Positions 9,301 through 56,957 of a stretch of DNA of 64,000 nt are shown here, piece after piece; the stretch's first letter is position 1, and each line of letters begins with the position of its first letter. The position numbers were made by a program, and so were the translations under genes. This stretch comes from Candidatus Aceula meridiana (lineage in GTDB: Bacteria; Omnitrophota; Gorgyraeia; Zapsychrales; Aceulaceae), in NCBI GenBank assembly GCA_030765185.1, contig JAVCDE010000031.1:4650-68649 (forward strand). Reading direction: 5' to 3'. A model generated the notes under the pieces. That model was not told the origin of the DNA. It saw nothing but the letters and a program-made list of their open reading frames with translations, and ran no database searches.

Positions 9301-9568
9301 GCAAAAGCGCATCCGGCCTTTCTTTTGCGATAACGCGCTCAACAAATTCTGGAGTCAGTGGCTCGATATACGTCGCATCCGCGATTTCTGGGTCAGTCAT
9401 AATCGTCGCGGGATTAGAATTAATCAAAACAACTTGATATCCTTCTTCCTTAAGCGCCTTGCACGCCTGCGTGCCAGAATAATCAAACTCGCATGCCTGG
9501 CCAATAATAATCGGACCCGAACCAATCAACAAAATTTTCTTAATATCGTTACGTCGTGGCATTTGCAC
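6299..9568 (-). CDS. carB: Carbamoyl-phosphate synthase large subunit.
   Basis: 1089 aa with duplicated ATP-grasp halves and an MGS-like C-terminal domain. Confidence 0.95.
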
Positions 9569-10646: not shown

Positions 10647-10763
10647 GAAAATTCTTTAGAAAATATTTTAAAAAGTTTGGCTGTGAAAACCAGCAACACT
10701 ATACCATTAACCGCATAGACGTCAAGAAAATATTAATTAGTATCTATATAAATAAGCTAAATT

Positions 10764-12224
10764 TTATTTATTTAAGTATCCATGGACTTCTTGGGCTGCA
10801 TTGCGTCCCTCATGGATAGCCCAAACCACTAAAGATTGTCCTCTTCGCATATCTCCTGCCGCAAAAACACCCTTGATGCTCGTCATATAATCAGCTGTTT
10901 TAACGTTTCCGCGCTCATCTAAGCCTACCCCAAGGCCCTCTAAAAGGCCTTTCTTAACGGGACTGACAAATCCCATTGCCAGAAATATTCTATCTGCTTC
11001 TAAGGTAAATTCAGATTTAGGAACCTCTTTCATAGGACTACGCCCTGTTTTCGAATCTTTTTCACCAAATTCTAAACGAACACCATGAAGCTTTGTAAGC
11101 TTTCCGTTTTTACCGCTCAGATTCTTTGTCAAAATTCCATAATGCTGTTCAACGCCTTCTTCCTGCGAGGTAGATGTTCTCTTGATAAAAGCCCAATGAG
11201 GCCAAGGGTTGTCTTGGGCGCGCTCTTTTGGCAGCTCAGGAAGAAGTTCGAGCTGTTTAACAGAAGCCGCCCCTTGCCTATTAGCCGTACCAACACAATC
11301 AGCGCCTGTATCTCCTCCACCTAAAACAATAACCCGCTGACCCTTAACATCAATGCGCGCTTCGTCATTAATAGTCTCCCCTCGATTAACTCTGTTTTGC
11401 TGAGTTAAGAAGTCCATAGCAAAATGAACGCCGCTAAGTTCTCGGCCAGGAACATCTAAATCGCGTGGTTTTTCAGAGCCGCCTGCCAAAACAACAGCAT
11501 CAAATTTCTTTAACAACTCATCAGTTGCCATATCAATACCGACATTCGTTTTTATTTTAAACTGAACTCCCTCTTTTTCCATAATCTCAACGCGGCGAAT
11601 AATAACTCGTTTCTCAAGCTTAAAATCTGGAATTCCTAAAGCCAAAAGCCCTCCGATAACTTCGTTCTTTTCAAAAACAACTACCTGATGGCCTTTTTTG
11701 TTTAGCTGGTCAGCGCAAGCTAAACCAGACGGGCCAGAGCCAACAACAGCTACTTTTTTGCCTGTCCTTCGTTTCGGCGGGCGAGGAGTAATCCACCCTT
11801 TGCTATAAGCCTTTTCAATAATTGAAACTTCAATATTTTTAATCGTGACCGCTGGATCTGTGATACCTAAAGTGCAAGAATTTTCACATGGGGCCGGGCA
11901 CAGGCGTCCTGTAAATTCTGGAAAATTATTTGTCTTTTGCAATCGCTCAATAGCCTCTTGCCAACGATTTTGATAAACAAGGTCATTCCAATCTGGAATA
12001 ATGTTTCCGATAGGGCATCCCCACTGACAAAATGGGATACCACAATCCATGCAACGGGCCCCTTGTCTGCGCAAGAGCTCTTCACCGGGCACCTCATAAA
12101 ACTCCTTCCAGTGCTTGAGACGATCCTCAACGCTCTGCCTATGAAATTCTTCCCGATTATATTCTAGGAAACCTTTAATCTGACCCATTTTCAATTTCCT
12201 CTTCTTGAACTTGTTTTTCAACAA
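10764..12224 (-). CDS. gltD: Glutamate synthase (NADPH) small subunit. The real start is probably the internal [10 protein letters not shown] at ~12188.
   Basis: [10 protein letters not shown] Fe-S motif, FAD/NAD Rossmann motifs GSGPSGL and GGGDTGAD. The listed N-terminus would overlap gltB by 50 nt, and an in-frame ATG with a conserved GltD start sits 36 nt downstream. Confidence 0.85.
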
Positions 12225-16731: not shown

Positions 16732-16958
16732 AATTTGAATTTATTGACTTTGATCTTGAGCTTTTTGATCTTAGAATGTATCGTGTTGCGATTAATTCCT
16801 AAGGTCTTTGCAGCTAAAATTTTATTGCCGCCGGCAAGTTCTAGCGCCCTTTCGATGATAATGCGTTCAACGTCATCGATAATATAGCGATAAATTTCGC
16901 CTCGCTTAGCCTCGATAAAGTCCTGCTTGACTTTTTGTTCGATAATTTTTCTATTCAT
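16728..16958 (-). CDS. Small Fis-family helix-turn-helix DNA-binding protein (76 aa).
   Basis: The C-terminus ILAAKTLGINRNTIHSKIKKL is a Fis/NtrC-type HTH. The stop overlaps the gltB start (ATGA). Confidence 0.55.
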   Translation of the reverse strand: MNRKIIEQKVKQDFIEAKRGEIYRYIIDDVERIIIERALELAGGNKILAAKTLGINRNTIHSKIKKLKIKVNKFKL

Positions 16959-17000
16959 TGTATTATTTTTTCTTCCCTTAGCAATCTTTAAATGAAAATT

Positions 17001-18692
17001 TTACTTCTCGCGATATTTATTAGTAATTGGCAGCCGTCTGTCTTTGCCAAAGGCTTTAGGGCTAATCTTAATCCCTAAAGGAGCCTGACGCCTTTTATAT
17101 TCCATATGGTCAACTAAGTCGACTGTTTTTTTAACGAGCGAACGGGCTTTCTTATCCTTTAAGAATTTCCCAATGGCCTGATCACCCTCAACATAGGCTG
17201 CTAAAATAGCATCCAAGACGTCATAGGCCGGCAAGCTATCCTGATCTTTTTGATTCTTCTTTAATTCTGCCGTAGGAGCCCTCTTGATAATGCTTTGAGG
17301 AATCACTGCCTTTTTTCCTTTTTTATTCCGAAACTCTACTAATTTGTAAACTCTAGTTTTAGGAATGTCTTTAATAACCGCGAATCCTCCTGCCATGTCT
17401 CCGTAGAGGGTACAATACCCAACCGCTGTCTCACTTTTGTTTCCTGTTGTCAGAACGAGATGCCCATGCTTATTGGAAATAGCCATTAAGATATTTCCCC
17501 GGATGCGCGCCTGTAAATTCTGTTCCGCGACATCTGAAGGCGTTTTGCCAAAAATTGTCTTTAAAATTTTTAAATACTCAGCAAAAATACTCTTAATGGA
17601 AAGTTCCATAAACTCAATGCCAAGGTTTTGAGCCAATCTCTTAGCGTCCTTTTTGGTTCCAGAAGATGTGTATGGGCTCGGCATGGAAACACCAAGAACG
17701 TTTTTAGCACCTAAGGCATCACGAGCGATGGCAGCCACAAGAGCAGAATCAATTCCGCCACTGATTCCGATAACAGCCTTTTTAAAACCATTTTTATAAA
17801 GATAATCTCGCGTCCCTAAAACAAGAGCTTGATAGATTTCCTCTTCTGTTTTTAAATGTTTGTGAACACGGCCTTTGATAAAAATTCCTGCTTTGGTCTT
17901 GAAGTTCTTTTCAACTCTGATTTTCTCAACACCTTTTCCTTTAGAAGCCTTTGGGGAAACAGCAATATCTGCCACAATTAAATCTTCTTCAAATTGTTTT
18001 CCTGTAGCAAATGTCTTTCCCTTCGGGTCAACAAAAAAGCTTCCTCCGTCGAAAATAAGCTCATCTTGTCCCCCAACCAGATTGCAATAACAAACTGTTG
18101 CTTTAAGTTTTTTAGCGCATGCGGATAAAACTTTTTCTCGTTGCTTCATTTTTCCTAGATGATAAGGTGAAGCTGATAAATTTAAAAGAATCTGCGCTCC
18201 GGCCTTAGCCTGCAGCATACACGGCCCATTATCTGACCAAATATCTTCGCAGATACTAATGCCTAAGCTTATGCCGTCACAAGAAAAAATCTTTACTTTC
18301 TCTCCTTTTTGAAAATAACGCTTTTCATCAAAGACGCCATAATTAGGAAGATTGTTTTTTCGATAAACACTCTTAAGCTTTCCATTCGCGATAACAGCTG
18401 CTGCATTGAAAAGGCTTTTTTGTGAATCGCGGTCAACAAATCCTATGACCACTGTAATATTCTTAGTATGAGGCGTTACGGTTTTTAGTGTCGCCAGATT
18501 GTCGTCAATAAAGTGCTTTTTTAAAAGAAGATCTTCCGGAGGATATCCTGTAATGCTTAATTCTGGAAAAACAACAACATCAGAGCTCATCGCGCGGGCT
18601 TTTTGAATAGCCGAAACAATCTTTTCGGCATTGCCGTTAAGATCGCCGACCGTTGTGTTAATTTGAGCTAAAGCAATGCGGATATTTTTCAT
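17001..18692 (-). CDS. nadE: Glutamine-dependent NAD+ synthetase (N-terminal CN-hydrolase domain plus NAD synthetase domain).
   Basis: 563 aa with a nitrilase-like N-domain and a PP-loop SGGIDS motif. Confidence 0.9.
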   Translation of the reverse strand: MKNIRIALAQINTTVGDLNGNAEKIVSAIQKARAMSSDVVVFPELSITGYPPEDLLLKKHFIDDNLATLKTVTPHTKNITVVIGFVDRDSQKSLFNAAAVIANGKLKSVYRKNNLPNYGVFDEKRYFQKGEKVKIFSCDGISLGISICEDIWSDNGPCMLQAKAGAQILLNLSASPYHLGKMKQREKVLSACAKKLKATVCYCNLVGGQDELIFDGGSFFVDPKGKTFATGKQFEEDLIVADIAVSPKASKGKGVEKIRVEKNFKTKAGIFIKGRVHKHLKTEEEIYQALVLGTRDYLYKNGFKKAVIGISGGIDSALVAAIARDALGAKNVLGVSMPSPYTSSGTKKDAKRLAQNLGIEFMELSIKSIFAEYLKILKTIFGKTPSDVAEQNLQARIRGNILMAISNKHGHLVLTTGNKSETAVGYCTLYGDMAGGFAVIKDIPKTRVYKLVEFRNKKGKKAVIPQSIIKRAPTAELKKNQKDQDSLPAYDVLDAILAAYVEGDQAIGKFLKDKKARSLVKKTVDLVDHMEYKRRQAPLGIKISPKAFGKDRRLPITNKYREK

Positions 18693-18728
18693 TTTTGCTT
18701 ATTTCTTAGGCATAAATTGTTAAATTTT

Positions 18729-19436
18729 TTATTGGGACTCTTTGACAATATCTAAAAAATTGTTATAAAGGATGTCAGCTGCTGTATTAAATTTTGTCTT
18801 CATTTTATCATAATCGCCCAAGATGTCTTGCGCTTTTTGATCTTGCTCGGCATCCTCTATTTTCCAATATTCTTTAATCCAGCTTTCAATAATATCCCGC
18901 TTTACCTCTACGTGGAACTGTAGGCCATAAGCATTTTTTCCTACCCGAAATGCTTGGTGATGGCATCTTTCTGACTGGGCTAGATGTCTTGCTTGTTTCG
19001 GAATATTAAAAGCATCTTCATGCCACTGAAAGACCTTTAAATTCGGCTCCAACCCCTTAAAAAGCGGGTCACAGGTACCCTCCTCAGTTAGTGCAACATC
19101 ATAAAAACCAACTTCTTTTTCAGGCGCCTTCGTGACTTTGGCATCGCAAGCCTTGGCCAAAAGCTGAGATCCGAGACAGATCCCCATAAAAGGGATTTCA
19201 GCTTCAATAACCTTTTGAATAAAAAGATTTTCGTCGGCCAAAAAAGGATGCTTTTGTTCTTCATAAACATTCATTGGCCCGCCTAAAACAACTACAGACT
19301 CAATGTCTTCAAGTGAGGCCGGGAGACTTTCACCGGCTTCGAGATCAATTATTCTTGTCTTAAAGCCGGCGTTTTTAAAAAAGTCACCCATTGTTCCTGG
19401 GCCTTCAATGGCAATCTGCTTTAAAAAAACAATCAC
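18729..19436 (-). CDS. Class I glutamine amidotransferase (stand-alone GATase1, GuaA-N-like).
   Basis: GICLGSQLL catalytic Cys motif and downstream His region in a 235-aa protein. Confidence 0.7.
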   Translation of the reverse strand: MIVFLKQIAIEGPGTMGDFFKNAGFKTRIIDLEAGESLPASLEDIESVVVLGGPMNVYEEQKHPFLADENLFIQKVIEAEIPFMGICLGSQLLAKACDAKVTKAPEKEVGFYDVALTEEGTCDPLFKGLEPNLKVFQWHEDAFNIPKQARHLAQSERCHHQAFRVGKNAYGLQFHVEVKRDIIESWIKEYWKIEDAEQDQKAQDILGDYDKMKTKFNTAADILYNNFLDIVKESQ

Positions 19437-19449
19437 TCTTGCTCCTTAT

Positions 19450-21555
19450 TTAAAGCATAAAAAGCATCTCAGCATAAGAAGGAAGCGGCCAAAGATCTGC
19501 CGGAACTAATCCTTCTAAAACATCGATAGGTTTACGAAGCGCTACCATCGCAGCTTTTGTTTTTAAAGGATCGCCTTTTTTAATTGCGCCTTCAAGCTTG
19601 TCGGTTAGCTCTAGAGACTCTTCAAGCTTTGCCGTAATCTCTTTTAAAAGCTTGCGAGAAGCTTTAGATTTTGTTTTGTTCACTGCTTCGACCGACTTAA
19701 TTGTATCAGCCAACTCATTTTGATATGTCACAACAGCCGGTAAAATTATGGTCTTGGCCATATCTGCAGTTAAAGATGCTTCATAATTAATAATTGTTTC
19801 ATACGTTTCAAGATAGACGTCATGACGAGAAACAAGCTCTTTCTTAGTCAAAACACTATACTTCTCAAAAAGATTAACAACCTCAGGTTTTGTGACTTCG
19901 CCTAAAGCCTCAACAGTGTTCTTAAGATTTGGAAGTCCTCTCTTTTGGGCTTCCTTAACCCAAGCCTCTGTATAGTTGTCGCCATTATAAATGACTCTCT
20001 TATGCTTCTTGATAATATCCTGAAGAAGTTTTTGAACAGCTTTATTAAAAGCATCTTTTGATTTTCCTGCCTTTTCAAGTGTTGTGCAAACTTCATCTAA
20101 GCTTTCAGCCACAATTGTATTTAAAACAATATTTGCTCCCGCTAAACTCGCGTTAGAACCAACAGCGCGAAATTCAAACTTAGCGCCTGTAAAAGCAAAA
20201 GGAGAAGTTCTGTTTCTATCTGTAGCATCTCTTGGTAGTTTTGGCAAAGAGTCAACGCCGATTTCTAGAACGCCACCTTTTTTAGATGTCTTTGCTCCAC
20301 CTTTTTCAATCTGCTCGATAATGTCCGTCAGCTGTTCACCTAAAAAGATAGAAATAATCGCCGGCGGTGCTTCATGAGAACCTAATCGATGATCGTTTCC
20401 TGCTGAAGCAATCGAAGCCCGCAACATACCGGCATGCGTATCCACGGCTTTGATAATTGCAGCCAAAACAACCAAAAACTTGGCATTATCATGGGGGTTA
20501 TCTCCCGGAGCAAGCCAGTTTTTACCATCTGGTCCTACAACAGACCAGTTGTTATGCTTACCCGAACCATTAACACCTGCAAAAGGTTTTTCATGGAGAA
20601 GGCATGTGAGTCCGTGCTTTTCAGCGACTTTTTGCATAACCTCCATGCAAAGCATATTATGATCTACGGCCAAATTAAGGCTTTCAAAAACAGGAGCTAG
20701 CTCAAATTGAGCCGGAGCAACTTCGTTATGCTGAGTTTTAGCAGGAATGCCTAAGCGCCACATCTCTTTGTTAAGGTCTTCCATAAACCCAATAACGCGG
20801 TTTTTGATGGCTCCGAAATAATGGTCGGCCATCTGTTGATGCTTTGCAGGCTCTTTTCCAAAAAGCGTTCGGCCTGTTTGAATAAGGTCGATTCTTTGAA
20901 GATAAAGATCCCTGTCAATCAAGAAATATTCTTGCTCACCGCCTAATGTTGCATAGGCTTGTTTTCCTTTCGAGCTAATGCCGAAAATTTCTGCCAAACG
21001 GCAAACTTGTTTTGACAAAGCTTTCATGGAGCGCAAAAGAGGTGTTTTCTTGTCCAACGCATCCCCATGCCATCCAATAAAATAAGTTGGAATGCAAAGT
21101 GTCGCTCCATTTGGGCCTTCTTTAATAAAGGCGGGACTAGTCGGATCCCATCCCGTGTAACCACGAGCTTCAAATGTAGGACGTAAGCCACCCGACGGAA
21201 AACTTGATGCGTCAGGTTCACCTTGAGTTAATTCTTTTCCGGAAAACTTAATAACCACGCCACCTTCATCATCCGGAGAAATGAACGCATCGTGTTTTTC
21301 AGCGGTCAACCCAGTCAAAGGTTGAAACCAGTGTGTGAAGTGAGTGGCTCCCTTGGAAACAGCCCAAGTTTTCATCGCATCAGCGACTTCGTCAGCGATG
21401 TTCGGGTCTAACAGGCCCCCCATTGTAATTGTTTTGCTTAAAGATTTATAAGCTTTTTCCGATAAGTAATTACGCATAACCTTTAAGCTAAACACGTTTT
21501 CCCCATAGAAGTCCCCAATCGTTTCTATGGCTTGACTTTTTGATGTTTTTTTCAC
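19450..21555 (-). CDS. glnN: Glutamine synthetase type III.
   Basis: ~700 aa is the size typical of GSIII, and GS catalytic-domain motifs are present. The start is GTG, preceded by AAGGAGGAG. Confidence 0.85.
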   Translation of the reverse strand: MKKTSKSQAIETIGDFYGENVFSLKVMRNYLSEKAYKSLSKTITMGGLLDPNIADEVADAMKTWAVSKGATHFTHWFQPLTGLTAEKHDAFISPDDEGGVVIKFSGKELTQGEPDASSFPSGGLRPTFEARGYTGWDPTSPAFIKEGPNGATLCIPTYFIGWHGDALDKKTPLLRSMKALSKQVCRLAEIFGISSKGKQAYATLGGEQEYFLIDRDLYLQRIDLIQTGRTLFGKEPAKHQQMADHYFGAIKNRVIGFMEDLNKEMWRLGIPAKTQHNEVAPAQFELAPVFESLNLAVDHNMLCMEVMQKVAEKHGLTCLLHEKPFAGVNGSGKHNNWSVVGPDGKNWLAPGDNPHDNAKFLVVLAAIIKAVDTHAGMLRASIASAGNDHRLGSHEAPPAIISIFLGEQLTDIIEQIEKGGAKTSKKGGVLEIGVDSLPKLPRDATDRNRTSPFAFTGAKFEFRAVGSNASLAGANIVLNTIVAESLDEVCTTLEKAGKSKDAFNKAVQKLLQDIIKKHKRVIYNGDNYTEAWVKEAQKRGLPNLKNTVEALGEVTKPEVVNLFEKYSVLTKKELVSRHDVYLETYETIINYEASLTADMAKTIILPAVVTYQNELADTIKSVEAVNKTKSKASRKLLKEITAKLEESLELTDKLEGAIKKGDPLKTKAAMVALRKPIDVLEGLVPADLWPLPSYAEMLFML

Positions 21556-21571: not shown

Positions 21572-21599
21572 CCGCCGAGGGCGGATCCGCCCTCGGTGG
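21572..21599 (-). promoter_or_regulatory. Perfect 22-bp GC-rich palindrome (CCGAGGGCGGATCCGCCCTCGG) between glnK and glnN. It is a stem-loop without a U-tract.
   Basis: The inverted repeat with a central GGATCC was read directly. On the minus strand it is followed by AAAAAAGGAGGAG and the glnN start. A possible transcript processing/stability or attenuation element. Confidence 0.4.
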
Positions 21600-21628
21600 C
21601 ACATTAATTAAACATCTTGCCTTTTTCT

Positions 21629-21970
21629 CTACCCTATAGCCTCGATTCCTTCTTCTTCAGTCCGAATGCGGATGCAGCGCGGCAAATCTAAAACAAAAAT
21701 CTTTCCATCCCCGATATTTCCTGATTTGGCGCCCTTGATAATCGCTTTAATCGTCGGCTCAACAAAATCTTTGTTGACTCCAATCTCAAGACGAACCTTT
21801 TTCAAAAGGTTTACCTCGTGGACAACACCTCGATACGTCTCGCTATAGCCTCTTTGCTGGCCACATCCTAAGACATTTGTGACTGTCATTTTGTGAACAC
21901 CTGCCTCAAAGAGTGCTTTCTTAACATCCGGAAGCTTGTGAGGCTGAATCATTGCTATAATCAGTTTCAT
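21629..21970 (-). CDS. glnK: Nitrogen regulatory protein P-II.
   Basis: 112 aa starting [13 protein letters not shown], with a T-loop containing the uridylylation-site Tyr context RGYSETYRG. Confidence 0.9.
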
Positions 21971-22041
21971 ATTCTCTCTCCTTTAAATGAGCGTATAATT
22001 TACGTGACCGCAAGAAGCGTAAATTATTTACGCGAATTTAT

Positions 22042-22063
22042 CCCGCACATAAAATGTGTCGGG
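22042..22063 (-). repeat. Bulged GC hairpin motif, copy 1 (CCCGCACAT-aaa-ATGTGTCGGG), 11 nt after the amt stop.
   Basis: It is one of three copies (24159, 60480) sharing the flank GCRARKTTAYCCCGC...GTCGGGA. All have a one-base bulge, and the inner stem shows compensatory changes. Confidence 0.5.
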
Positions 22064-22076
22064 ACGGTCTATGTTC

Positions 22077-23423
22077 TTATTCGGTTGTAAAAACCTGGAA
22101 CCCTTTGTAAGATTCCATTCCATGCAAACTAATGTCAAGCCCCTTAAGTTCTTCTTCACGAGTAACCCTTAGGCCTTTGGTAATTTTTGCAATAACCGTA
22201 AAAATAATAAACATCATAGCCGCAACAAACGCAACGGCAGCCAACAGGCCAGCCGCTTGAATACCAAGCTGTTTAAATCCTCCGCCATGCAAAAGCCCAT
22301 CGTTAGCAAGGCCCAATGCTTTGTGGCCAAAAATCCCAACAGCCAAAGTTCCCCAAGAACCGTTCATTAAGTGAACCGGCACAGCGCCAACAGGGTCATC
22401 AACGCCGACCTTGTCTAAAAAAATCGTTCCAAGAACAACAATAATCCCAGCGATAGCTCCTATAATCAGCGCTTCGCTTGGCATAATAAATCTACAAGGT
22501 GCTGTAACAGCAACTAATCCAGCCAAAGCGCCATTCATTGTCATAGTTAAATCTGGCTTACCAAACAATTTCCAAGCAAAAAACATAGCAACTAATCCCC
22601 CTGAAACAGCAGATAAATTTGTTGTCATGGCCACGTGAGCAATAGCACTTCCATCGCCAACACTTAAGGTCGATCCTGGATTGAAACCAAACCAAGCAAA
22701 CCAAAGAATAAGCGCTCCCAAGGAAGCCAAGGGCATGGAATGGCCTTCGACCGCGTTCGCTGAGCCATCTTTGTTAAACTTTCCGATGCGGGGCCCAAGC
22801 ATCATGGTTCCAACAAGAGCTGCTGTTCCACCAACCGCATGAACAACAGTCGATCCTGCAAAATCAGCAAACCCAAGATTGGCTAACCATCCACCGCCCC
22901 AAATCCAATGTCCGACGATAGGATAAACTGTAGCTGAAATTAAAAATGAATACATCAAATAAGCTTGAAATTTCATGCGTTCGGCAACACCACCGGCAAC
23001 GATTGTGGCTGCCGCACCACAAAAAACAGCATGAAAAAACCACTCTGCATATAAAGGAATATGAGCGCCGGGTTCGATGTTATTTAAAAACCACCCGCTG
23101 AAGCCCATAAAACCATTTCCGACGCCAAACATAATAGCATACCCAAAAATAAAGAACCCAACGGATGCCATACAAAAATCTAAAAAGTTGCACATCAAAA
23201 CGTTGCACGTATTCTTTGTCCGAATAAGCCCTGCTTCAAGCATGCCGAATCCTGCCTGCATAATAAAAACCATAAAAGCAGCAATCATAACCCAAAGGGT
23301 ATCAACACCGACTTTTGACGCAAACACTACTTCTTCCTGCGCGTATACTACTGCTGGGCAAACCAAAAGAAAAGCCAGGATAAGGGCTTTTTTTCTTAAG
23401 ATGTTTTTCAAAAATGTCATCAT
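22077..23423 (-). CDS. amt: Ammonium transporter (Amt family) with signal peptide.
   Basis: 448 aa, 11 TM segments, Amt signature regions, and a glnK partner downstream. Confidence 0.9.
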   Translation of the reverse strand: MMTFLKNILRKKALILAFLLVCPAVVYAQEEVVFASKVGVDTLWVMIAAFMVFIMQAGFGMLEAGLIRTKNTCNVLMCNFLDFCMASVGFFIFGYAIMFGVGNGFMGFSGWFLNNIEPGAHIPLYAEWFFHAVFCGAAATIVAGGVAERMKFQAYLMYSFLISATVYPIVGHWIWGGGWLANLGFADFAGSTVVHAVGGTAALVGTMMLGPRIGKFNKDGSANAVEGHSMPLASLGALILWFAWFGFNPGSTLSVGDGSAIAHVAMTTNLSAVSGGLVAMFFAWKLFGKPDLTMTMNGALAGLVAVTAPCRFIMPSEALIIGAIAGIIVVLGTIFLDKVGVDDPVGAVPVHLMNGSWGTLAVGIFGHKALGLANDGLLHGGGFKQLGIQAAGLLAAVAFVAAMMFIIFTVIAKITKGLRVTREEELKGLDISLHGMESYKGFQVFTTE

Positions 23424-23462
23424 TTTCTCCTTTTTGTTATATCCTTTTTCTTTTTAGCCTCT

Positions 23463-23510
23463 AAAACAAAAAAGAGGTCTAAACAGTCACCGCTGACCAT
23501 TTTGGACCTC
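23463..23510 (-). terminator. Leader intrinsic terminator/attenuator upstream of amt.
   Basis: Minus-strand RNA reads GAGGUC-(26-nt loop with inner GUCA-GCGG-UGAC hairpin)-GACCUC followed by UUUUUUGUUUU. It lies between the predicted promoter and the amt start. Confidence 0.45.
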
Positions 23511-23624
23511 ATTGCCCAGAAATCGCGTGGTTATAAAAAATCCCCAAAAAACTACCGCCGAGAAGACGTAATTTCTTGAGGACTTCATTGTCCAACAGTA
23601 GACGCCATTGCCTACTTTTTAAGC

Positions 23625-23652
23625 AGTATACAATAAAAAAATTTTTTGTCAA
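23625..23652 (-). promoter_or_regulatory. Sigma70-like promoter for amt (TTGACA-16-TATACT).
   Basis: Hexamers read on the minus strand: -35 at 23647-23652 and -10 at 23625-23630, with a 16-nt spacer. Confidence 0.45.
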
Positions 23653-23693
23653 TACCCCTTTTTCAACAAAATTCCTTTTTTTGTTTTGGCTAG

Positions 23694-23722
23694 GAAGGGC
23701 GGCTTTTTAAAAGCCGCCCTTC
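23694..23722 (-). terminator. GC-rich hairpin GAAGGGCGGC-loop-GCCGCCCTTC downstream of the upstream glnK (probable terminator; atypical U-tract).
   Basis: Perfect 10-bp inverted repeat 3 nt after the glnK stop. The T-run lies on the other flank. Confidence 0.4.
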
Positions 23723-23742
23723 TTTCTTCTTTTAAAAAACCC

Positions 23743-24084
23743 TTACCCTATCGCTTTGTTTCCAGTCTCACCCGTACGGATCCGAATGCACTGAGGCAAA
23801 TCTAAAACGAAAATTTTTCCGTCTCCAATGTTGCCAGTTTTAGCACCTTTGGCAATCGCCTTAATAGTCAGGTCAACAAACTCTTCATTCACCGCAATTT
23901 CAAGTCTCACTTTCTTTAAAAGATTGACCTGATGAACAACGCCACGGTAAGTTTCGCTAAACCCTTTTTGTTGTCCACATCCCAAAACATTAGTCACTGT
24001 CATTTTATGAACATCCGCCGCAAACAATGCTTTTTTGACATCAGGCAACTTATGCGGTTGAATCATCGCAATAATCAATTTCAT
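23743..24084 (-). CDS. glnK: Nitrogen regulatory protein P-II (second copy, ~85% identical to the first).
   Basis: 112 aa starting [13 protein letters not shown]. Confidence 0.9.
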
Positions 24085-24158
24085 AATCTTCCTCCTCCTT
24101 TAAATGAGCGTATAATTTAAGCGACTGCAAAAAGCGTAAATTATCTACGCGAAGTTAT

Positions 24159-24180
24159 CCCGCACATAAAACGTGTCGGG
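24159..24180 (-). repeat. Bulged GC hairpin motif, copy 2 (CCCGCACAT-aaa-ACGTGTCGGG).
   Basis: It occupies the same position after the second amt stop. The ~100-bp amt-glnK intergenic segment is ~88% identical to the first. Confidence 0.5.
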
Positions 24181-24192
24181 ATAGTCTATATT

Positions 24193-25584
24193 TTATTCGG
24201 TTGAAAAGATCTGGAATCCCGCATAAGCTTCCATCCCATGCTCTTCAATATCAAGACCCCGAAGCTCTTCATTCCCGCTGACGCGAAGACCAATCGTTTT
24301 CTTAATAATATAAAACAAAGCAAACCCTGTTATTAAACACCAGACAAAAACAGCCCCTACGCCTGCTAGCTGAGCTAACAACAATTTAGCCCCGCCTCCA
24401 AAAAAGAGGCCGTTTCCTGTTGTCCCCGGAGCAAAAATGTCTTGAGCAAAAAGCCCTACAGAAATAGTTCCCCAGGCACCGCAAACACCATGAACAGAAA
24501 CAGCACCAACAGGATCATCGATGCGAAGAACCTTATCTACAAAAACAACCGCAAAAACAACTAAAACTCCAGCAACAGATCCAATAATAACCGCGCTTCC
24601 GGCAGAAACAAAAGCACACGGCGCTGTAATGCCGACTAATCCAGCTAAGGCCCCATTAAGCGCCATCGAAAGGTCTGGCTTTCCAAAAAGTTTCCACGAA
24701 ACCAGCATGGCAGCACAAGCTCCGGCTGCTGCAGCCAAATTAGTTGTTACAGCAATATGGCCGATATCTAAAACTGCTCCCATTGTACTTCCAGGATTAA
24801 ACCCAAACCATCCAAACCAAAGGATAAAAACACCTAAAGCAGCTAAAGGAAGGTTGTGTCCCGGAATAGCATTTGAGCTTCCGTCCGGATTATATTTTCC
24901 GATCCTAGGCCCAAGCATAATAGCGCCCGTTAAAGCAACCCAAGCACCGGTAGAGTGGACAACCGTAGAACCTGCAAAATCCCAAAATCCAAGATTAGCA
25001 AGCCAGCCACCGCCCCAAATCCAATGACCAACAACCGGATAAATAAGGGCTGTCACCACAACGCTAAACGCAAGGTATCCTATAAACTTCGTACGTTCGG
25101 CCATAGCTCCAGAGACAATGGTCGCTGCCGTAGCCGCAAAAACAAGCTGGAAAAAATATTTTGCTTCTAACGGAATAGTTGACCAAGCTAAAGAATCAAA
25201 CGTTCCTCCTAAATCTTTAAGAAAGAACCCGCTTGTTCCAAAGAGCGCATTTCCTGCGCCAAACATAATTCCGAATCCGATAGCCCAATAGATAATCGTT
25301 CCTACAGAAAAATCCATCAGATTTTTCATCAAGATATTACAAGCATTCTTAGCCCTAGTAAACCCTGTCTCAACAAGGGCAAATCCGGCCTGCATAAGCA
25401 TAACCAAGAAAGCCGCAAGAATGGTCCAAACAGTATCCAGGATCACTTTGTTTTCTTGAATAAGCTCCGCATTGTCAGCTATGCTCGATGCGTCTTGCGC
25501 AAACACCGGGCCTGCAAGCCCTAAACACCCAATAACAAAAAGTGCCAGAGCCTTAGGCCATATTCTTTTTAATTCTTTAAACAT
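24193..25584 (-). CDS. amt: Ammonium transporter (Amt family), second, more divergent copy.
   Basis: 463 aa with a signal peptide and Amt TM topology. Confidence 0.9.
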   Translation of the reverse strand: MFKELKRIWPKALALFVIGCLGLAGPVFAQDASSIADNAELIQENKVILDTVWTILAAFLVMLMQAGFALVETGFTRAKNACNILMKNLMDFSVGTIIYWAIGFGIMFGAGNALFGTSGFFLKDLGGTFDSLAWSTIPLEAKYFFQLVFAATAATIVSGAMAERTKFIGYLAFSVVVTALIYPVVGHWIWGGGWLANLGFWDFAGSTVVHSTGAWVALTGAIMLGPRIGKYNPDGSSNAIPGHNLPLAALGVFILWFGWFGFNPGSTMGAVLDIGHIAVTTNLAAAAGACAAMLVSWKLFGKPDLSMALNGALAGLVGITAPCAFVSAGSAVIIGSVAGVLVVFAVVFVDKVLRIDDPVGAVSVHGVCGAWGTISVGLFAQDIFAPGTTGNGLFFGGGAKLLLAQLAGVGAVFVWCLITGFALFYIIKKTIGLRVSGNEELRGLDIEEHGMEAYAGFQIFSTE

Positions 25585-25612
25585 TTTCTCCCCCTTTCTT
25601 TTTAAGTAAGCT

Positions 25613-26410
25613 TTAAAACTCAGCGCTAAAGCCTACGCCCCAAAAAAATTCATTTTCATGAGCCCCGTCACCTTCATCTTTAACATCCCCAAATGGCATG
25701 CTATAGTTGATGCTGGGAGCCATGCTTAAAAACTTTGTAAGAGGAATCGTTACTCCTCCACTTAAAGCAACATCTCCGCCTTCTCCCTTAATAAAGAGCT
25801 TGCGGTTATAACCAACATGTCCGCCTAAATCTAAGGTAATCCCATAAGAAGGAACAAGGTCAAGACTGTGGCTTAAATCCAGAACTAAGTAATCTCCCTT
25901 ACCTCCGCCTTGGCTTTCCCGGCTATAATCATGGTACCATGTAAGCGACGGCGCTAAAAAAGTATCATAGGAAAAACCTAAAACAGCCTCTTTGCTGAAA
26001 GTTCCTGCATCAGGAAAATCATAATAAACATGGCCAACGGTAACGCTGAAGGTTTCTAAATCTTTATCAAAAAGATTGAGATTCTCAAAGTCGTATGTAT
26101 ACGTCAGCGATGTATCCATTTCAGAAGAAGCCCTACCATCGGCTGCATCAATATCAAAATTTGACCAGACACCTAACTCAAAGCCATAAGCACCAATGGT
26201 GAAACCAGGCTGTATAACAAAATCGTTATCAAGCTTCATTCCGCGCCAAATGTATTTTGAATAAAGGTCTGTGGTAGCACTAATATCAACATTGATATTC
26301 TTTTCCCCTAAGAAATTTCCAATAACCGTTTTTGGCTCTTCTTGAGCCATAGAAATCCCTGCCGTTAAAACAAACATTGTTCCTACAACTGCTGTGAAAA
26401 ATCTTCTCAT
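25613..26410 (-). CDS. Putative outer-membrane beta-barrel protein (porin-like), first gene of the amt-glnK unit.
   Basis: Signal peptide ending AQEE, alternating amphipathic strands, and a C-terminal aromatic residue (SAEF). A 28-bp gap separates it from amt. Confidence 0.5.
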   Translation of the reverse strand: MRRFFTAVVGTMFVLTAGISMAQEEPKTVIGNFLGEKNINVDISATTDLYSKYIWRGMKLDNDFVIQPGFTIGAYGFELGVWSNFDIDAADGRASSEMDTSLTYTYDFENLNLFDKDLETFSVTVGHVYYDFPDAGTFSKEAVLGFSYDTFLAPSLTWYHDYSRESQGGGKGDYLVLDLSHSLDLVPSYGITLDLGGHVGYNRKLFIKGEGGDVALSGGVTIPLTKFLSMAPSINYSMPFGDVKDEGDGAHENEFFWGVGFSAEF

Positions 26411-26469
26411 CTCAACTTCTCCTCTTTTAATTGTTTAACATCTTTTTCTTTACCAAAAAGAAAAGCCCC

Positions 26470-26640
26470 CTTCTTAAAAAGTCATCAACGACTTTAAAAA
26501 GAGGACTTCTTCGCCCACCTTAGGGACCCTTAAACCACAAAAACCCGACGGATCAATCATTGATCGGTCGAGCCTCTTTGCCCAGAAAATAAAAAACCTC
26601 TTAACCCTTCACCGGATTAAGAGGACTTCTTCGCCCATCT
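26470..26640 (-). promoter_or_regulatory. Leader with three consecutive terminator-like hairpins (26587-26624, 26535-26570, 26473-26495) and two copies of the direct repeat GGGCGAAGAAGUCCUCUU. Candidate ANTAR-responsive attenuators.
   Basis: T1 is an 11-bp stem with a GGUGAA loop followed by UUUUUUAUUUU. T2 is AAAGUC-GUUGAU-GACUUU plus a U-run. The middle hairpin is CGACCGAUC..GAUCCGUCG plus GGUUUUUGUGG. Each direct repeat can form GGGC-GAAGAA-GUCC overlapping the terminator base. Confidence 0.5.
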
Positions 26641-26649
26641 GTTACTTTA

Positions 26650-26677
26650 AATATACAACATTTTAGAAATTTGTCAA
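26650..26677 (-). promoter_or_regulatory. Sigma70-like promoter (TTGACA-16-TATATT) directly after the GAF-ANTAR stop, reading into the attenuator leader.
   Basis: -35 at 26672-26677 and -10 at 26650-26655 on the minus strand. Confidence 0.45.
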
Positions 26678-26687
26678 GGGCCTTTTT

Positions 26688-27929
26688 TTACTTTCTTTGA
26701 AAATCAGACATTAAAAGAATTGACTCAGCAACTTCTTTCATCGTCTTGCATGAATCCATACTTTTTTTATGAATCATTTTATAGGCCTGATTTTCATCCA
26801 AGCTATTCATGCGCATCAAAATGCCCTTAGCTCGTTCCACAAGTTTACGCGTTTCAAGGGCTTCTTTGGCCTTAACTGTCTCATCGACAAGCTTTGTGTT
26901 TTCAACCGCAATAGCAGCCTGATTTGAGACCATTTGAAGAACATTTATCTCCTCTTGTGAAAAGCTATGTGGCTTTTTAGTATAAATATTAATAACGCCA
27001 ACAATGCGGTCCTTAACAATCATTGGCACTGAAAGCATAGAGCTTAAGCCCTCTTTTATGGCCAAATCCCGATAAGCATATTTTTCCTCTATCCTAACAT
27101 CGAAATACATTTTAGCCTTGCGTGCTTTTACAGCTTCACCGCTTAAACTTTTTTCTACCTTGATGTCAGATTTTTTCTTATAATCTTGACTTAAAGATTG
27201 TGTCGCTTTAATAGAAAGCTCATTTTTCTTTTCATCTAAAAGCATAATCGAGCAAATCTTGGAATCCAGCATCTCAGCTGTCACGACCACAATAAGATTT
27301 AAAATCTCATCCAAATAGCTCTCAGAAGTAATCGACTGACTCACTTTAATGAGTTTATCAAACTGGTTTGCCTTTTTTTTCGTTTCCTCATAGAGCCTGG
27401 CGTTTTCGATAACACCGCTGACTTGCTTTGAAATGGTTGTCAAAAGATTAATTGTCGCATTGGGAGTCGAATGTACTTTTTTATACTGAATATTGATAAC
27501 GCCGCTTGTCCTTCCCTTATATATAATCGGGACAGACACAAAAGCTTCATATCTGTCTTCAGGCAAGACATCGAACCCTTTAAAACGCTTATCTTTATAA
27601 GCGTTTTGCTTAATATTGACAACTTTGCTTTCTTTGGCAACCCAACCAGTAATGCCCTCTCCGGCTCGCAGGCTAATTTTCCCAAGTTCTTGTTTGTGAG
27701 GAATTTTTGAAGCCAAAAGGATTAAATTTTTTCGGCTCTCATCAAAAAGATAAATAAAAACGGAGTCTGCTTTAGTAGCTACGCTAACAATATTAACAAC
27801 TTCCTTTAAAATCGGGGCAAGGTCTAAGTCTGAAGAAACAAGATCGACAATTTTTCGTAAAATCTCCACTTCTTGGGCTTGACTACGCAATTTAGCGGAT
27901 GTCTTTGTTTTTACAACTTGCTTAGGCAT
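26688..27929 (-). CDS. GAF-GAF-ANTAR RNA-binding antitermination regulator.
   Basis: Two ~150-aa GAF-like repeats. The C-terminus LVERAKGILMRMNSLDENQAYKMIHKKSMDSCKTMKEVAESIL matches the ANTAR domain (AmiR/NasR/EutV family). Confidence 0.75.
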   Translation of the reverse strand: MPKQVVKTKTSAKLRSQAQEVEILRKIVDLVSSDLDLAPILKEVVNIVSVATKADSVFIYLFDESRKNLILLASKIPHKQELGKISLRAGEGITGWVAKESKVVNIKQNAYKDKRFKGFDVLPEDRYEAFVSVPIIYKGRTSGVINIQYKKVHSTPNATINLLTTISKQVSGVIENARLYEETKKKANQFDKLIKVSQSITSESYLDEILNLIVVVTAEMLDSKICSIMLLDEKKNELSIKATQSLSQDYKKKSDIKVEKSLSGEAVKARKAKMYFDVRIEEKYAYRDLAIKEGLSSMLSVPMIVKDRIVGVINIYTKKPHSFSQEEINVLQMVSNQAAIAVENTKLVDETVKAKEALETRKLVERAKGILMRMNSLDENQAYKMIHKKSMDSCKTMKEVAESILLMSDFQRK

Positions 27930-28027: not shown

Positions 28028-28411
28028 ATGACATTCAAAGACGGTAAAAAAGAAATTCTCGTTATTGACGATGACCCGGTTCAAATTAAGCTTTTAGAAA
28101 AACGCCTACCGGAGAACGGATACGCTGTTCTAACGGCTACCAAAGCCGCTGAAGGGCTTCAAATGGCTATCGATAAACACCCTGACCTCATTGTTCTAGA
28201 TGTCATGATGCCTATCATCAACGGCTACAACCTTTGCCAACTTTTAAAAGCTGAAGAAAAACACAAAAATATCCCTGTGATTATGCTAACCTCACGTGAT
28301 AAAGAAAAGGATATTAAAATCGGCCATAATGTCGGTGCTGATGCTTACCTGATCAAACCCGTAGATGTGCCTATTTTGCTTCAGAAAATCGAAGAACTTC
28401 TAAGAAACTAA
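28028..28411 (+). CDS. Single-domain response regulator (CheY-like receiver).
   Basis: ILVIDDD...LIVLDVMMP...K motif set. Transcribed divergently from the ANTAR regulator. Confidence 0.85.
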   Translation: MTFKDGKKEILVIDDDPVQIKLLEKRLPENGYAVLTATKAAEGLQMAIDKHPDLIVLDVMMPIINGYNLCQLLKAEEKHKNIPVIMLTSRDKEKDIKIGHNVGADAYLIKPVDVPILLQKIEELLRN

Positions 28412-51421: not shown

Positions 51422-51493
51422 CTGCCCCGTCTGGACTCGAACCAGAATTACTTGATCCAGAGACAAGCGTGCTACCAATTGCACCACAGGGCA
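51422..51493 (-). tRNA. tRNA-Gln (anticodon CUG).
   Basis: U1-A72 first pair and G73 discriminator, typical of bacterial tRNA-Gln. Anticodon loop CUCUGGA, T-loop GGTTCGAGTCC. CCA is not encoded. Confidence 0.8.
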
Positions 51494-56904: not shown

Positions 56905-56957
56905 AAATGTATTATACCACAAGCGTCAACGCCTTAAAGCCTTAAACGTTCCTAAAA

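What the first reader, a model, noticed from the sequence alone, without database searches (positions are those of the whole stretch)
23424..23660. Second attenuator: the amt leader has its own promoter, a leader terminator, and the motif UUUCUGGGCAAWGAGG shared with the porin-operon leader.
TTGACA-16-TATACT sits ~190 nt upstream of the amt start. Inside that leader a GAGGUC...GACCUC hairpin followed by UUUUUUGUUUU precedes the SD sequence. The 16-nt element UUUCUGGGCAA(U/A)GAGG sits immediately 5' of this terminator, and its GAGG forms the start of the terminator's 5' strand. The same element sits in the same position 5' of the middle terminator in the 26.5-kb leader (26571-26586). Two separately promoted amt units sharing a motif that overlaps a terminator stem suggests one trans-acting antitermination factor, plausibly the adjacent ANTAR protein.
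Basis: seen in the sequence. Interest (0 to 1): 0.7.

Follow-up and report, generated by a model that had tools for sequence, protein, structure and literature searches.

The report
ANTAR antiterminator hairpins in nitrogen-gene leaders
The shared 16-nt "motif" is most of a small six-base-loop RNA hairpin of the type bound by ANTAR antitermination proteins, and five such hairpin-plus-terminator switches gate two ammonium-uptake operons next to a GAF-ANTAR regulator gene, which makes this a clear but essentially known kind of nitrogen control in an uncultivated bacterium.

Summary
The promoter, the GAGGUC...GACCUC terminator with its U-tract, and the 16-mer at 23507-23522(-) and 26573-26588(-) are all present. 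The second site lies 2 nt from the stated coordinates.

The conserved unit is not the linear 16-mer. Its loop and 3' strand form the base of the terminator's 5' arm. The UUUCU flank is not conserved even in the closest relative.

The window holds five such hairpin/terminator modules: three in the porin-amt-glnK leader and two in the amt-glnK-GSIII leader. Four modules have a second hexaloop hairpin 4-9 nt away.

The loop signature (A/G at position 1, G at position 4), the mutual exclusion with terminators, and the adjacent GAF-GAF-ANTAR gene match the published ANTAR mechanism. ANTAR RNA sites upstream of amt and P-II genes are already known from Ramesh 2012 and from Geobacter GnfR.

In 91 related loci, the 14-mer GGRCANNGANGTCC occurs 65 times on the regulator's strand and once on the other. 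The regulator's first GAF domain resembles the glutamine-sensing GAF of EI-Ntr and the NifA GAF.

Verdict: a new member of a known kind.

The parts
26688..27929 (-). GAF-GAF-ANTAR one-component regulator (413 aa), the proposed antiterminator
   Evidence: Pfam finds two GAF stretches plus ANTAR PF03861 at residues 354-405, 71 bits against a cut-off of 27.3. It is 100% identical to a protein that NCBI names from Candidatus Aceula meridiana. GAF1 resembles the PtsP/EI-Ntr and NifA GAF domains. The Tyr in the ...QAYKM... segment aligns with the AY of EutV.
26650..26677 (-). Promoter A, TTGACA-16-TATATT, for the porin-amt-glnK unit
   Evidence: Matches 11 of 12 consensus positions. The two hexamers are conserved in L081.
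26586..26636 (-). Module A1. Core hairpin GGGC-GAAGAA-GUCC (26623-26636); nested hexaloop hairpin AUCC-GGUGAA-GGGU (26604-26617); terminator (26597-26624); U-tract (26586-26596).
   Evidence: The nested hairpin is conserved as AYCC-GNNGAA-GGRU in L081 and L086-L091, and as AUC-AAUGAA-GAU in L084.
26539..26588 (-). Module A2.
   Evidence: L081 has GGGC-GAAGAG-GCCC, so the G-U pair becomes G-C.
26455..26516 (-). Module A3. Core hairpin GGGC-GAAGAA-GUCC (26503-26516); nested hairpin AGUC-GUUGAU-GACU (26480-26493); terminator (26460-26512); U-tract (26455-26459).
   Evidence: The nested stem covaries in L081 (AGCC-GGUGAU-GGCU) while G1 and G4 are kept.
25613..26410 (-). Gcw_chp-family outer-membrane (porin-like) gene, first gene of unit A
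   Evidence: Pfam PF09694, E = 2.9e-8
24193..25584 (-). Ammonium transporter (unit A)
   Evidence: Pfam PF00909, E = 1.2e-129
23743..24084 (-). P-II / GlnK (unit A)
   Evidence: Pfam PF00543
23625..23652 (-). Promoter B, TTGACA-16-TATACT, for the second amt unit
   Evidence: Matches 11 of 12 consensus positions. It is identical in L081 over about 40 nt.
23535..23615 (-). P1 hairpin GUAGGC-AAUGGC-GUCUAC (23598-23615); linker UGUU; core hairpin GGAC-AAUGAA-GUCC (23580-23593); terminator (about 23541-23586); U-tract (23535-23540).
   Evidence: This is the canonical dual-hexaloop layout. In L081 the P1 loop is AAUGAC, keeping A1 and G4.
23463..23522 (-). Module B2, the finding itself.
   Evidence: In L081 the core is invariant and the nested loop is AGUGGC, with A1 and G4 kept and positions 3 and 6 changed.
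22077..23423 (-). Ammonium transporter (unit B)
   Evidence: Pfam PF00909, E = 1.2e-123
21629..21970 (-). P-II / GlnK (unit B)
   Evidence: Pfam PF00543
19450..21555 (-). Glutamine synthetase type III, 73 nt after glnK with no terminator between, so probably in unit B
   Evidence: Pfam GSIII_N, Gln-synt_C and Gln-synt_C-ter; spacer sequence

Best explanation
The element is the RNA target of an ANTAR-type antiterminator.

Shown from sequence: each leader starts at a near-consensus sigma-70-type promoter and carries tandem intrinsic terminators, three before porin-amt-glnK and two before amt-glnK-GSIII. At the 5' base of each terminator, a weak 4-bp hairpin with a hexaloop (GGRC-RNNGNN-GYCC, -3 to -4 kcal/mol) shares its loop and/or 3' strand with the terminator's 5' arm. 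The terminators are far stronger (-20 to -32 kcal/mol), so the default state is termination.

Inferred mechanism: when the adjacent GAF-GAF-ANTAR protein is active, its ANTAR dimer binds the hexaloop. The position-4 G would stack on the conserved aromatic residue, as in EutV. The protein holds the small hairpin together with a partner hexaloop hairpin 4-9 nt away. The partner lies upstream in module B1 and at the apex of the terminator in modules A1, A3 and B2. The terminator base then cannot form, and RNA polymerase reads through.

Inferred signal: the N-terminal GAF domain resembles the glutamine-binding GAF of EI-Ntr and the GAF of NifA, so the signal is probably cellular nitrogen status (low glutamine and/or high 2-oxoglutarate activates).

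Inferred consequence: terminators in series multiply, which should give very low leak and a steep response. The threshold should be higher for the three-terminator unit than for the two-terminator unit.
For: Anatomy and energetics:
- Hairpins, terminators and overlaps are described.
- Both leaders fold better than all 200 shuffles (z = -3.9 and -4.6).
- Hexaloop hairpins of this kind number 4 in leader B and 5 in leader A, against 0.27 and 0.32 expected from the background rate in 2.6 Mb (Poisson p = 1.7e-4 and 2e-5).
- The pattern GGRCRAWGARGYC has 9 hits in the window against 1.43 expected. Five of them are in the two leaders.

Match to the family definition:
- The published target is a short stem with a hexaloop carrying A1 and G4, overlapping a terminator, in a dual-hairpin layout with a 5-12 nt linker (PMC3369931).
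- A single hexaloop is the minimal binding unit, and G4 stacks on Tyr164 of EutV (PMC8934654).

Regulator:
- An ANTAR domain is present. PDB matches are Rv1626, NasR and EutV, and the aromatic residue aligns.

Co-occurrence with the regulator gene:
- In Omnitrophota, the orthologous regulator gene lies directly upstream of amt, glnK or GSIII leaders carrying 1-3 of the same modules.
- In Nitrospirota, GGAC-AAWGRC-GUCC plus a terminator follows the regulator gene, ahead of a glutamine-dependent NAD synthetase.
- GGRCANNGANGTCC occurs 65 times on the regulator's strand and once on the other in 91 loci; about 0.6 per strand is expected.
- With the loop left unconstrained, A1/G4 makes up 38% of loops against about 7% expected from base composition.

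Substitution pattern in L081:
- Core hairpins are invariant.
- Partner loops change at positions 2, 3 and 6 but never at 1 or 4.
- One partner stem shows a compensatory U-A to C-G change.

Precedent:
- ANTAR RNA hits upstream of ammonium transporter and P-II genes are listed in Ramesh 2012 Table S2.
- Geobacter GnfR acts on glnK and amtB leaders through the box CAGGCAANGGCGCC, which overlaps terminators (PMC2995071).

Sensor:
- GAF1 matches the PtsP GAF (E = 1.7e-35), NifA (5.8e-21) and PDB 3ci6 (1.5e-23).
- Glutamine binds the EI-Ntr GAF domain (PMC4848567).
Against: - No experiment exists. Binding, termination and the signal are all inferred.
- Four of the nine hexaloops (A1, A3 and their nested partners) have G rather than A at position 1.
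The nearest is 20 nt upstream.
- A nested partner is found in only 14 of 70 core-associated terminators across loci, so it is not obligatory.
- In A1 the core hairpin overlaps only 2 bp of the core terminator stem.
- The core stem is conserved in sequence rather than covarying. The evidence for its pairing is therefore limited to one-sided changes (G-U, A-U, G-C).
- No GAF-ANTAR protein has been characterised (PMC7496416), so the ligand assignment rests on domain similarity alone.
Confidence: 0.8

Rival explanations
1. The shared sequence only reflects common descent. The two amt units are paralogous duplicates, so their leaders share leftover sequence around ordinary terminators that dampen expression constitutively, with no factor binding.
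For: The two units are clearly paralogous: both are amt-glnK, and their amt-glnK spacers are about 86% identical. The UUUCU flank shared by the two copies is not conserved elsewhere, so that part may well be historical accident or the tail of the preceding U-tract.
Against: - Outside the hairpins, the two leaders are not alignable.
- The same 14-nt hairpin recurs in front of different genes (porin, amt, GSIII, NadE) in genomes from different phyla, always on the regulator's strand (65 to 1).
- Loop positions 1 and 4 are fixed while the others drift.
- Tandem unregulated terminators in front of essential nitrogen-assimilation genes would be hard to explain.
Confidence: 0.05
2. The leaders are metabolite-sensing riboswitches (for example glutamine) or leader-peptide attenuators, and the ANTAR protein is unrelated to them.
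For: Nitrogen genes are controlled by glutamine riboswitches in some phyla (my own knowledge). Both leaders are strongly structured.
Against: - No Rfam family comes near its gathering score in either leader, even in permissive mode.
- The conserved units are 14-nt hairpins, too small for a ligand pocket.
- The short ORFs in the leader have no SD and no conserved coding signal.
- The hexaloop signature is specific to ANTAR targets.
Confidence: 0.03
3. The hairpins are bound by an ANTAR protein, but control is not simple nitrogen-sensing by the GAF domains. Activity would instead be set by a partner protein, such as the GlnK proteins encoded in both units or the divergently encoded single-domain response regulator (28028-28411, +). 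This would resemble the way AmiC controls AmiR or NasS controls NasT.
For: - The REC gene is syntenic next to the regulator in L081, L084, L087, L088 and L090.
- Several ANTAR proteins are controlled by protein partners, for example NasS-NasT (PMC3795266 abstract).
- Both regulated units encode P-II proteins, which would close a feedback loop.
Against: - The regulator has two sensor-type GAF domains of its own. The first is closest to GAF domains that bind glutamine or 2-oxoglutarate directly.
- The regulator has no receiver domain to accept a phosphoryl group.
Confidence: 0.12

Closest known systems
EutV / eut leader dual-hexaloop antiterminators of Enterococcus faecalis (Ramesh 2012, PMC3369931; Walshe 2022, PMC8934654)
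   Same: - Short stems with hexaloops carrying A1 and G4.
- One hairpin shares nucleotides with the 5' arm of an intrinsic terminator.
- Several terminators in one locus are each gated this way.
- The regulator is an ANTAR-domain protein with a conserved aromatic residue that aligns with the EutV Tyr.
- Module B1 has the canonical P1-linker-P2-terminator layout.
   Different: - The sensor is two GAF domains in one polypeptide, not a phosphorylated receiver domain.
- The terminators are stacked two or three deep in a single leader rather than spread through an operon.
- Four of the nine loops have G at position 1.
- In three modules the partner hairpin sits downstream at the terminator apex instead of upstream.
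- The pathway is ammonium assimilation, not ethanolamine use.
GnfR and the glnK / amtB / nif leaders of Geobacter sulfurreducens (Ueki and Lovley 2010, PMC2995071)
   Same: An ANTAR regulator relieves premature termination in the leaders of glnK and amtB. Its conserved box, CAGGCAANGGCGCC, lies upstream of and overlapping the terminators.
   Different: GnfR is a response regulator under a histidine kinase within a sigma-54 cascade. The regulator here is a one-component GAF-GAF-ANTAR protein, and the promoters look sigma-70-type.
NasR / nasF leader of Klebsiella (one-component sensor-ANTAR)
   Same: It is a one-component architecture, with a ligand-sensing domain fused to ANTAR. It targets a hexaloop hairpin in a leader terminator, it controls nitrogen-assimilation genes, and the regulator gene lies next to its target operon.
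   Different: NasR has a NIT domain that senses nitrate or nitrite and acts on a single terminator. The regulator here has PtsP/NifA-like GAF domains, acts on tandem terminators, and its targets are amt, glnK and GS.
GAF domain of EI-Ntr (PtsP) and of NifA
   Same: These are the best sequence matches to residues 20-187 of the regulator (NCBIfam 1.7e-35 and 5.8e-21; PDB 3ci6 1.5e-23). The EI-Ntr GAF domain binds glutamine (PMC4848567).
   Different: In those proteins the output is a phosphotransferase or a sigma-54 activator, not an RNA-binding domain. Ligand binding by this protein is untested.

Membership tests
ANTAR-target RNA (hexaloop antiterminator; Ramesh 2012, Walshe 2022) | Short paired stem closed by a hexanucleotide loop | tested here: met
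Three further core hairpins, one upstream P1 and three nested hairpins are also present.
ANTAR-target RNA (hexaloop antiterminator; Ramesh 2012, Walshe 2022) | A at loop position 1 and G at loop position 4 | tested here: met
Across all nine hairpins in the window, G4 occurs in 9 of 9 and A1 in 5 of 9; the other four have G1. In related loci with the loop left unconstrained, A1/G4 makes up 38% against about 7% expected.
ANTAR-target RNA (hexaloop antiterminator; Ramesh 2012, Walshe 2022) | Hairpin mutually exclusive with a downstream intrinsic terminator | tested here: met
   The loop and/or 3' strand of each of the five core hairpins forms the base of a terminator 5' arm. Terminators fold at -19.7 to -32.4 kcal/mol against -3.0 to -4.2 for the hairpins, and each is followed by a U-tract.
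ANTAR-target RNA (hexaloop antiterminator; Ramesh 2012, Walshe 2022) | Two hexaloop hairpins separated by a short linker (5-12 nt in eut), with the second one overlapping the terminator | tested here: inconclusive
   - B1 is canonical, with a 4-6 nt linker.
- A1, A3 and B2 have a partner 5, 9 and 5 nt downstream, nested in the terminator apex. That order is not the canonical one.
- A2 has none within 12 nt.
- Nested partners are enriched: 14 of 70 core-associated terminators against 47 of 904 others (p = 4e-5). Among terminators that contain any nested hexaloop hairpin, 14 of 26 against 47 of 281 (p = 5e-5).
- Walshe 2022 redefined the minimal site as a single hexaloop.
ANTAR-target RNA (hexaloop antiterminator; Ramesh 2012, Walshe 2022) | An ANTAR-domain protein is encoded in the genome | tested here: met
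   An adjacent gene on the same strand, 26688-27929, has PF03861 at 71 bits. Co-occurrence holds across 36 loci.
ANTAR-target RNA (hexaloop antiterminator; Ramesh 2012, Walshe 2022) | Specific protein binding and regulator-dependent read-through | not testable with these tools
   This needs EMSA or SPR, plus in vitro transcription or a reporter assay.
ANTAR domain proteins (Pfam PF03861) | ANTAR three-helix domain above the Pfam gathering score, preceded by a helical linker | tested here: met
   71 bits against a cut-off of 27.3 at residues 354-405. It aligns with Rv1626 (1s8n), NasR (4akk) and EutV (6wsh), including the A-[YFW] position.
Glutamine / 2-oxoglutarate-sensing GAF domains (EI-Ntr, NifA) | Sequence membership of the GAF domain and ligand binding | tested here: inconclusive
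   Domain-level similarity is strong (PRK11061 1.7e-35; nifA 5.8e-21; 3ci6 1.5e-23). However, the full-length equivalog cut-offs are not met, because only the GAF part matches. Ligand-contact residues were not examined, and binding cannot be tested here.
Any curated Rfam family | Score at or above the family's gathering threshold | tested here: not met
   The whole window has only 6S RNA and one tRNA at gathering score. Permissive mode over 23350-26750 gives nothing near threshold in the leaders.

The most novel reading that the evidence does not exclude
This GAF-GAF-ANTAR family would be a one-component, direct glutamine/2-oxoglutarate-sensing antiterminator. It would serve as the main nitrogen regulator of Omnitrophota and Nitrospirota, replacing promoter-level NtrC/sigma-54 control with purely post-initiation control from constitutive promoters.

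It would also use a variant RNA layout. The terminator-excluding hexaloop hairpin comes first, and its partner hexaloop sits at the apex of the terminator itself. Modules stacked two or three deep would set graded thresholds for different operons.

No GAF-ANTAR protein has been characterised so far, so this would be the first with a defined regulon, RNA site and candidate ligand.
Probability: 0.4. Interest if true: 0.6.

Novelty: new member of a known kind. Interest (0 to 1): 0.4.

Why it matters
The mechanism itself, an ANTAR hexaloop competing with a terminator in front of amt and P-II genes, is already published. The finding therefore mainly confirms a textbook-type riboregulatory switch in an uncultivated phylum.

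Its practical value lies elsewhere. It pairs an uncharacterised and very widespread class of regulator with a sharply defined RNA site, a coherent regulon and a concrete ligand hypothesis.
- Regulator: GAF-GAF-ANTAR, with thousands of homologues, 46-87% identical among the fetched relatives from Omnitrophota, Nitrospirota, Acidobacteria and Elusimicrobia.
- RNA site: GGRC-ANNGNN-GUCC.
- Regulon: amt, glnK, GSIII, glutamine-dependent NAD synthetase, and probably GOGAT.
- Ligand hypothesis: glutamine or 2-oxoglutarate, sensed through a PtsP/NifA-like GAF domain.

This makes the question "what do GAF-ANTAR proteins sense and control?" directly testable in vitro. It is also relevant to nitrogen regulation in Nitrospira-type nitrifiers.

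The stacked terminators and the terminator-apex partner loops are a useful natural test of the successive-binding model proposed for EutV.

Tried and rejected
1. Only 12 of 120 complete the hairpin, 3 of those have a nearby U-run, and none lies near amt, P-II or ANTAR genes. A 16-mer is expected to occur by chance hundreds of times in a collection of that size.
2. Scan for the 16-mer in the 91 related loci. There were no matches, which shows the linear 16-mer is not the conserved unit.
3. Rfam, at gathering score and in permissive mode. No family explains the leaders. The weak plus-strand hits at 23614-23740 are all far below gathering score and overlap the hairpin after glnK, which on the plus strand is followed by a T-rich tail.
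4. Leader-peptide attenuation. The short ORFs in the leader have no SD and no meaningful codon content, so this was rejected.
5. Extra motif hits in the window.
   - GGGCACAGGCGTCC at 11896(+) lies antisense inside gltD.
   - GAACAATGAGGTC at 28184-28196(-) does not form a hairpin and lies antisense inside the REC gene.
   - Both were judged chance matches.
6. MAFFT alignment of module 1 from eight genomes (A5). It misplaced gaps in the 3' arm, so I did not run pair counting on it. Covariation statements rest on direct reading of the sequences.
7. The minus strand as a control for loop composition. This is not independent, because GGAC...GUCC stems are self-complementary and mirror the plus-strand sites.
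8. Literature search with the prefix "antar". It mostly matched "Antarctic".
9. No upstream P1 could be found for B2 or A2, even when allowing 3-bp stems (manual inspection).
Full report
**1. What is in the sequence**

All the relevant genes lie on the minus strand. In order of transcription they are:
- a 413-aa GAF-GAF-ANTAR protein (26688-27929);
- leader A;
- a Gcw_chp porin-like gene (25613-26410);
- an ammonium transporter (24193-25584);
- P-II/GlnK (23743-24084);
- a GC-rich hairpin (23692-23724);
- leader B;
- a second ammonium transporter (22077-23423);
- a second GlnK (21629-21970);
- type III glutamine synthetase (19450-21555);
- a class-I amidotransferase, glutamine-dependent NAD synthetase, a small HTH protein, GltB, GltD, CarA and CarB.

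The regulator is 100% identical to a protein that NCBI names from Candidatus Aceula meridiana, an Omnitrophota MAG.

**2. Check of the observation**

- The promoter TTGACA-16-TATACT is at 23652-23625 and matches 11 of 12 consensus positions.
- The terminator GAGGUC...GACCUC is at 23474-23510, with UUUUUUGUUUU at 23463-23473.
- The 16-mer occurs exactly at 23507-23522 and 26573-26588, and nowhere else in the window even with two mismatches. Chance expectation is 0.13.
- GAGG does open the terminator's 5' arm.

**3.

On the RNA strand, the 16-mer continues for three more bases and closes a 4-bp hairpin with a six-base loop. The two copies are GGGC-AAUGAG-GUCC and GGGC-AAAGAG-GCUC.

The same kind of hairpin occurs three more times:
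- GGAC-AAUGAA-GUCC at 23580-23593, also in leader B;
- GGGC-GAAGAA-GUCC at 26623-26636 in leader A;
- GGGC-GAAGAA-GUCC at 26503-26516 in leader A.

Each sits at the 5' base of its own intrinsic terminator. Leader A therefore has three terminators in series.

Terminators fold at -19.7 to -32.4 kcal/mol, against -3.0 to -4.2 for the small hairpins. The default state is termination, and the small hairpin would need to be stabilised by a factor.

**4. Partner hairpins**

- B1 has a classical upstream partner, GUAGGC-AAUGGC-GUCUAC (23598-23615), four bases before the core hairpin.
- A1, A3 and B2 have a second hexaloop hairpin 5, 9 and 5 nt downstream. It forms the apex of the terminator: AUCC-GGUGAA-GGGU, AGUC-GUUGAU-GACU and GGUC-AGCGGU-GACU.
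- A2 has none within 12 nt.

Hexaloop hairpins with A/G at position 1 and G at position 4 occur at 0.0013 per nt in 2.6 Mb of related sequence. Four in leader B and five in leader A are therefore far above chance (p = 1.7e-4 and 2e-5).

**5. Comparative evidence**

I fetched 80 loci encoding relatives of the regulator from species-representative genomes, plus eleven loci (L081-L091, three of them redundant copies) of closer relatives.

Gene context:
- In Omnitrophota, the regulator gene usually sits directly upstream of (porin)-amt-glnK-GSIII on the same strand.
- The intervening leaders carry one to three copies of the same hairpin-plus-terminator module.
- A clade of eight genomes, including the window, shares the triple-terminator leader. 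A ninth (L091) has two of the modules plus a terminator-less dual hexaloop next to the SD.
- In Nitrospirota, GGAC-AAWGRC-GUCC plus a terminator follows the regulator gene ahead of a glutamine-dependent NAD synthetase. There it is usually accompanied by a canonical upstream P1.

Strand bias and loop composition:
- The strict pattern GGRCANNGANGTCC occurs 66 times in 36 of the 91 loci. Sixty-five are on the regulator's strand; about 0.6 per strand is expected.
- With the loop left unconstrained, A1/G4 accounts for 38% of loops against about 7% expected from composition.

Closest relative, L081 (regulator 87% identical, same synteny):
- The core hairpins are invariant.
- The UUUCU flank is not. 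It reads UUUUU and UGUUU at the two sites.
- Partner loops change at positions 2, 3 and 6 but keep positions 1 and 4: AAUGGC to AAUGAC, AGCGGU to AGUGGC, GGUGAA to GAAGAA, and GUUGAU to GGUGAU.
- One nested stem shows a compensatory U-A to C-G change.
- The AGCGGU to AGUGGC change would break the A-U pair of the alternative tetraloop fold, which favours the hexaloop reading.

Nested partners across loci:
- Terminators with a core hairpin at their base carry a nested A/G1-G4 hexaloop hairpin in 14 of 70 cases, against 47 of 904 for other terminator-like hairpins (p = 4e-5).
- Among terminators that contain any 4-bp hexaloop hairpin, the figures are 14 of 26 against 47 of 281 (p = 5e-5).
- The nested partner is therefore real but not obligatory.

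**6. Comparison with what is known**

- Ramesh et al. 2012 defined the ANTAR target as two small hairpins with hexaloops carrying A at position 1 and G at position 4. The second hairpin overlaps the terminator, and the linker is 5-12 nt in the eut leaders (PMC3369931).
- Their genome searches already listed hits before ammonium transporter and P-II genes.
- Walshe et al. 2022 showed that an ANTAR dimer contacts one hexaloop at a time, with G4 stacking on Tyr164. They redefined the minimal site as a single hexaloop and proposed successive binding (PMC8934654).
- In Geobacter, the ANTAR response regulator GnfR is the proposed antiterminator for terminator-like signals in the glnK, amtB and nif leaders, acting through a conserved box CAGGCAANGGCGCC (PMC2995071).

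The regulator here has a bona fide ANTAR domain, and its Tyr in ...QAYKM... aligns with the AY of EutV. The element therefore passes the testable membership criteria. The exception is the strict dual-hairpin order, which is met in B1, met in a non-canonical order in A1, A3 and B2, and not met in A2.

**7. The sensor**

- No GAF-ANTAR protein has been characterised. NasR and PAL are the only one-component ANTAR proteins studied (PMC7496416; the 2025 review PMC12591593).
- Residues 20-187 match the GAF domain of PtsP/EI-Ntr (E = 1.7e-35), NifA (5.8e-21) and PDB 3ci6 (1.5e-23).
- Glutamine binds the EI-Ntr GAF domain (PMC4848567).
- NifA GAF binding of 2-oxoglutarate is from my own knowledge.

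I infer direct sensing of nitrogen status. This step is the least secure. Control through GlnK, or through the syntenic divergent REC protein, is a live alternative.

**8. Rivals**

- Paralogy alone cannot explain recurrence of the hairpin before unrelated genes in different phyla with position-specific loop conservation.
- Riboswitch and leader-peptide models find no support.

**9. Caveats**

- The hairpin after the first glnK (23692-23724) has a U-rich tail only on the plus strand. Some read-through from unit A into leader B therefore cannot be excluded. Promoter B is nonetheless near-consensus and identical in L081.
- The core stem is conserved in sequence rather than covarying.
- All functional statements are inferences from sequence.

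**10. Verdict**

This is a new member of the known ANTAR antitermination kind. Two features are worth following up: the first clear regulon and RNA site for a GAF-ANTAR regulator, and stacked modules with a terminator-apex partner loop. Interest is moderate.

Noticed in passing
window 24085-24192 (-) and 21971-22076 (-); L081 13768-13876 and 15886-15995: The roughly 106-nt spacers between amt and glnK are about 86% identical between the two paralogous units and between genomes. They hold a hairpin UCCCGAC...GUGCGGGA whose apex covaries. Two partly inter-complementary elements follow, GCGUAAAUAAUUUACGC and GCGUAAAUUAUACGC, just before the glnK SD. This may be a second regulatory RNA acting on glnK translation or mRNA processing. 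There is no Rfam hit in the unit-A spacer (the unit-B spacer was outside the permissive scan; nothing at gathering score in either).
   Followed up: partly
window 23692-23724: The GC-rich 15-bp hairpin after the first glnK has a U-rich tail on the plus strand. On the minus strand, the direction of glnK transcription, it is followed by an A-rich run. It may be a weak or bidirectional terminator or an RNA-stabilising hairpin. The L081 equivalent also lacks a U-tract.
   Followed up: partly
window 21575-21605 (-): A perfect GC-rich hairpin, CCACCGAGGGCGGAUCCGCCCUCGGCGG, followed by an A-run, lies in the 73-nt gap between the second glnK and the GSIII gene. It is not a terminator on this strand, and its function is unknown.
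   Followed up: no
window 28028-28411 (+): A single-domain response-regulator (REC) gene lies divergent from the GAF-ANTAR gene. The same arrangement is kept in L081, L084, L087, L088 and L090. It may be a functional partner of the regulator.
   Followed up: partly
L090 about 10500-10545; L091 about 1565-1600: In two relatives, a dual hexaloop pair (GAGC-AUUGUC-GCUC, a 6-nt linker, AACC-AAUGGC-GGUU) sits just upstream of the SD of the porin-like gene, with no terminator after it. ANTAR control of translation is possible, as reported for actinobacteria.
   Followed up: no
L045, L054, L058, L062, L065, L070, L077 (about 100-200 nt after the regulator stop): In Nitrospirota, the regulated terminator's 3' arm contains GAGGAC, and the NAD synthetase start codon follows directly after the U-tract. 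The terminator hairpin probably also hides the ribosome-binding site, which would combine transcriptional and translational control.
   Followed up: no
window 16728-16958 (-): A 76-aa Fis/HTH_8-like ORF lies between the NAD synthetase and gltB genes and overlaps the gltB start by 4 nt. It is conserved in L088 and L090, where it is annotated HTH_8.
   Followed up: partly
window 56750-56906 (-) and 51422-51493 (-): 6S RNA (75.6 bits) and one tRNA are the only Rfam matches at gathering score in the window.
   Followed up: no
window 6299-19436 (-): Downstream of unit B, a continuous same-strand block encodes GATase, glutamine-dependent NadE, GltB, GltD, CarA and CarB, with no further hairpin/terminator modules. 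Leader B may therefore control a very long nitrogen-assimilation transcript.
   Followed up: partly
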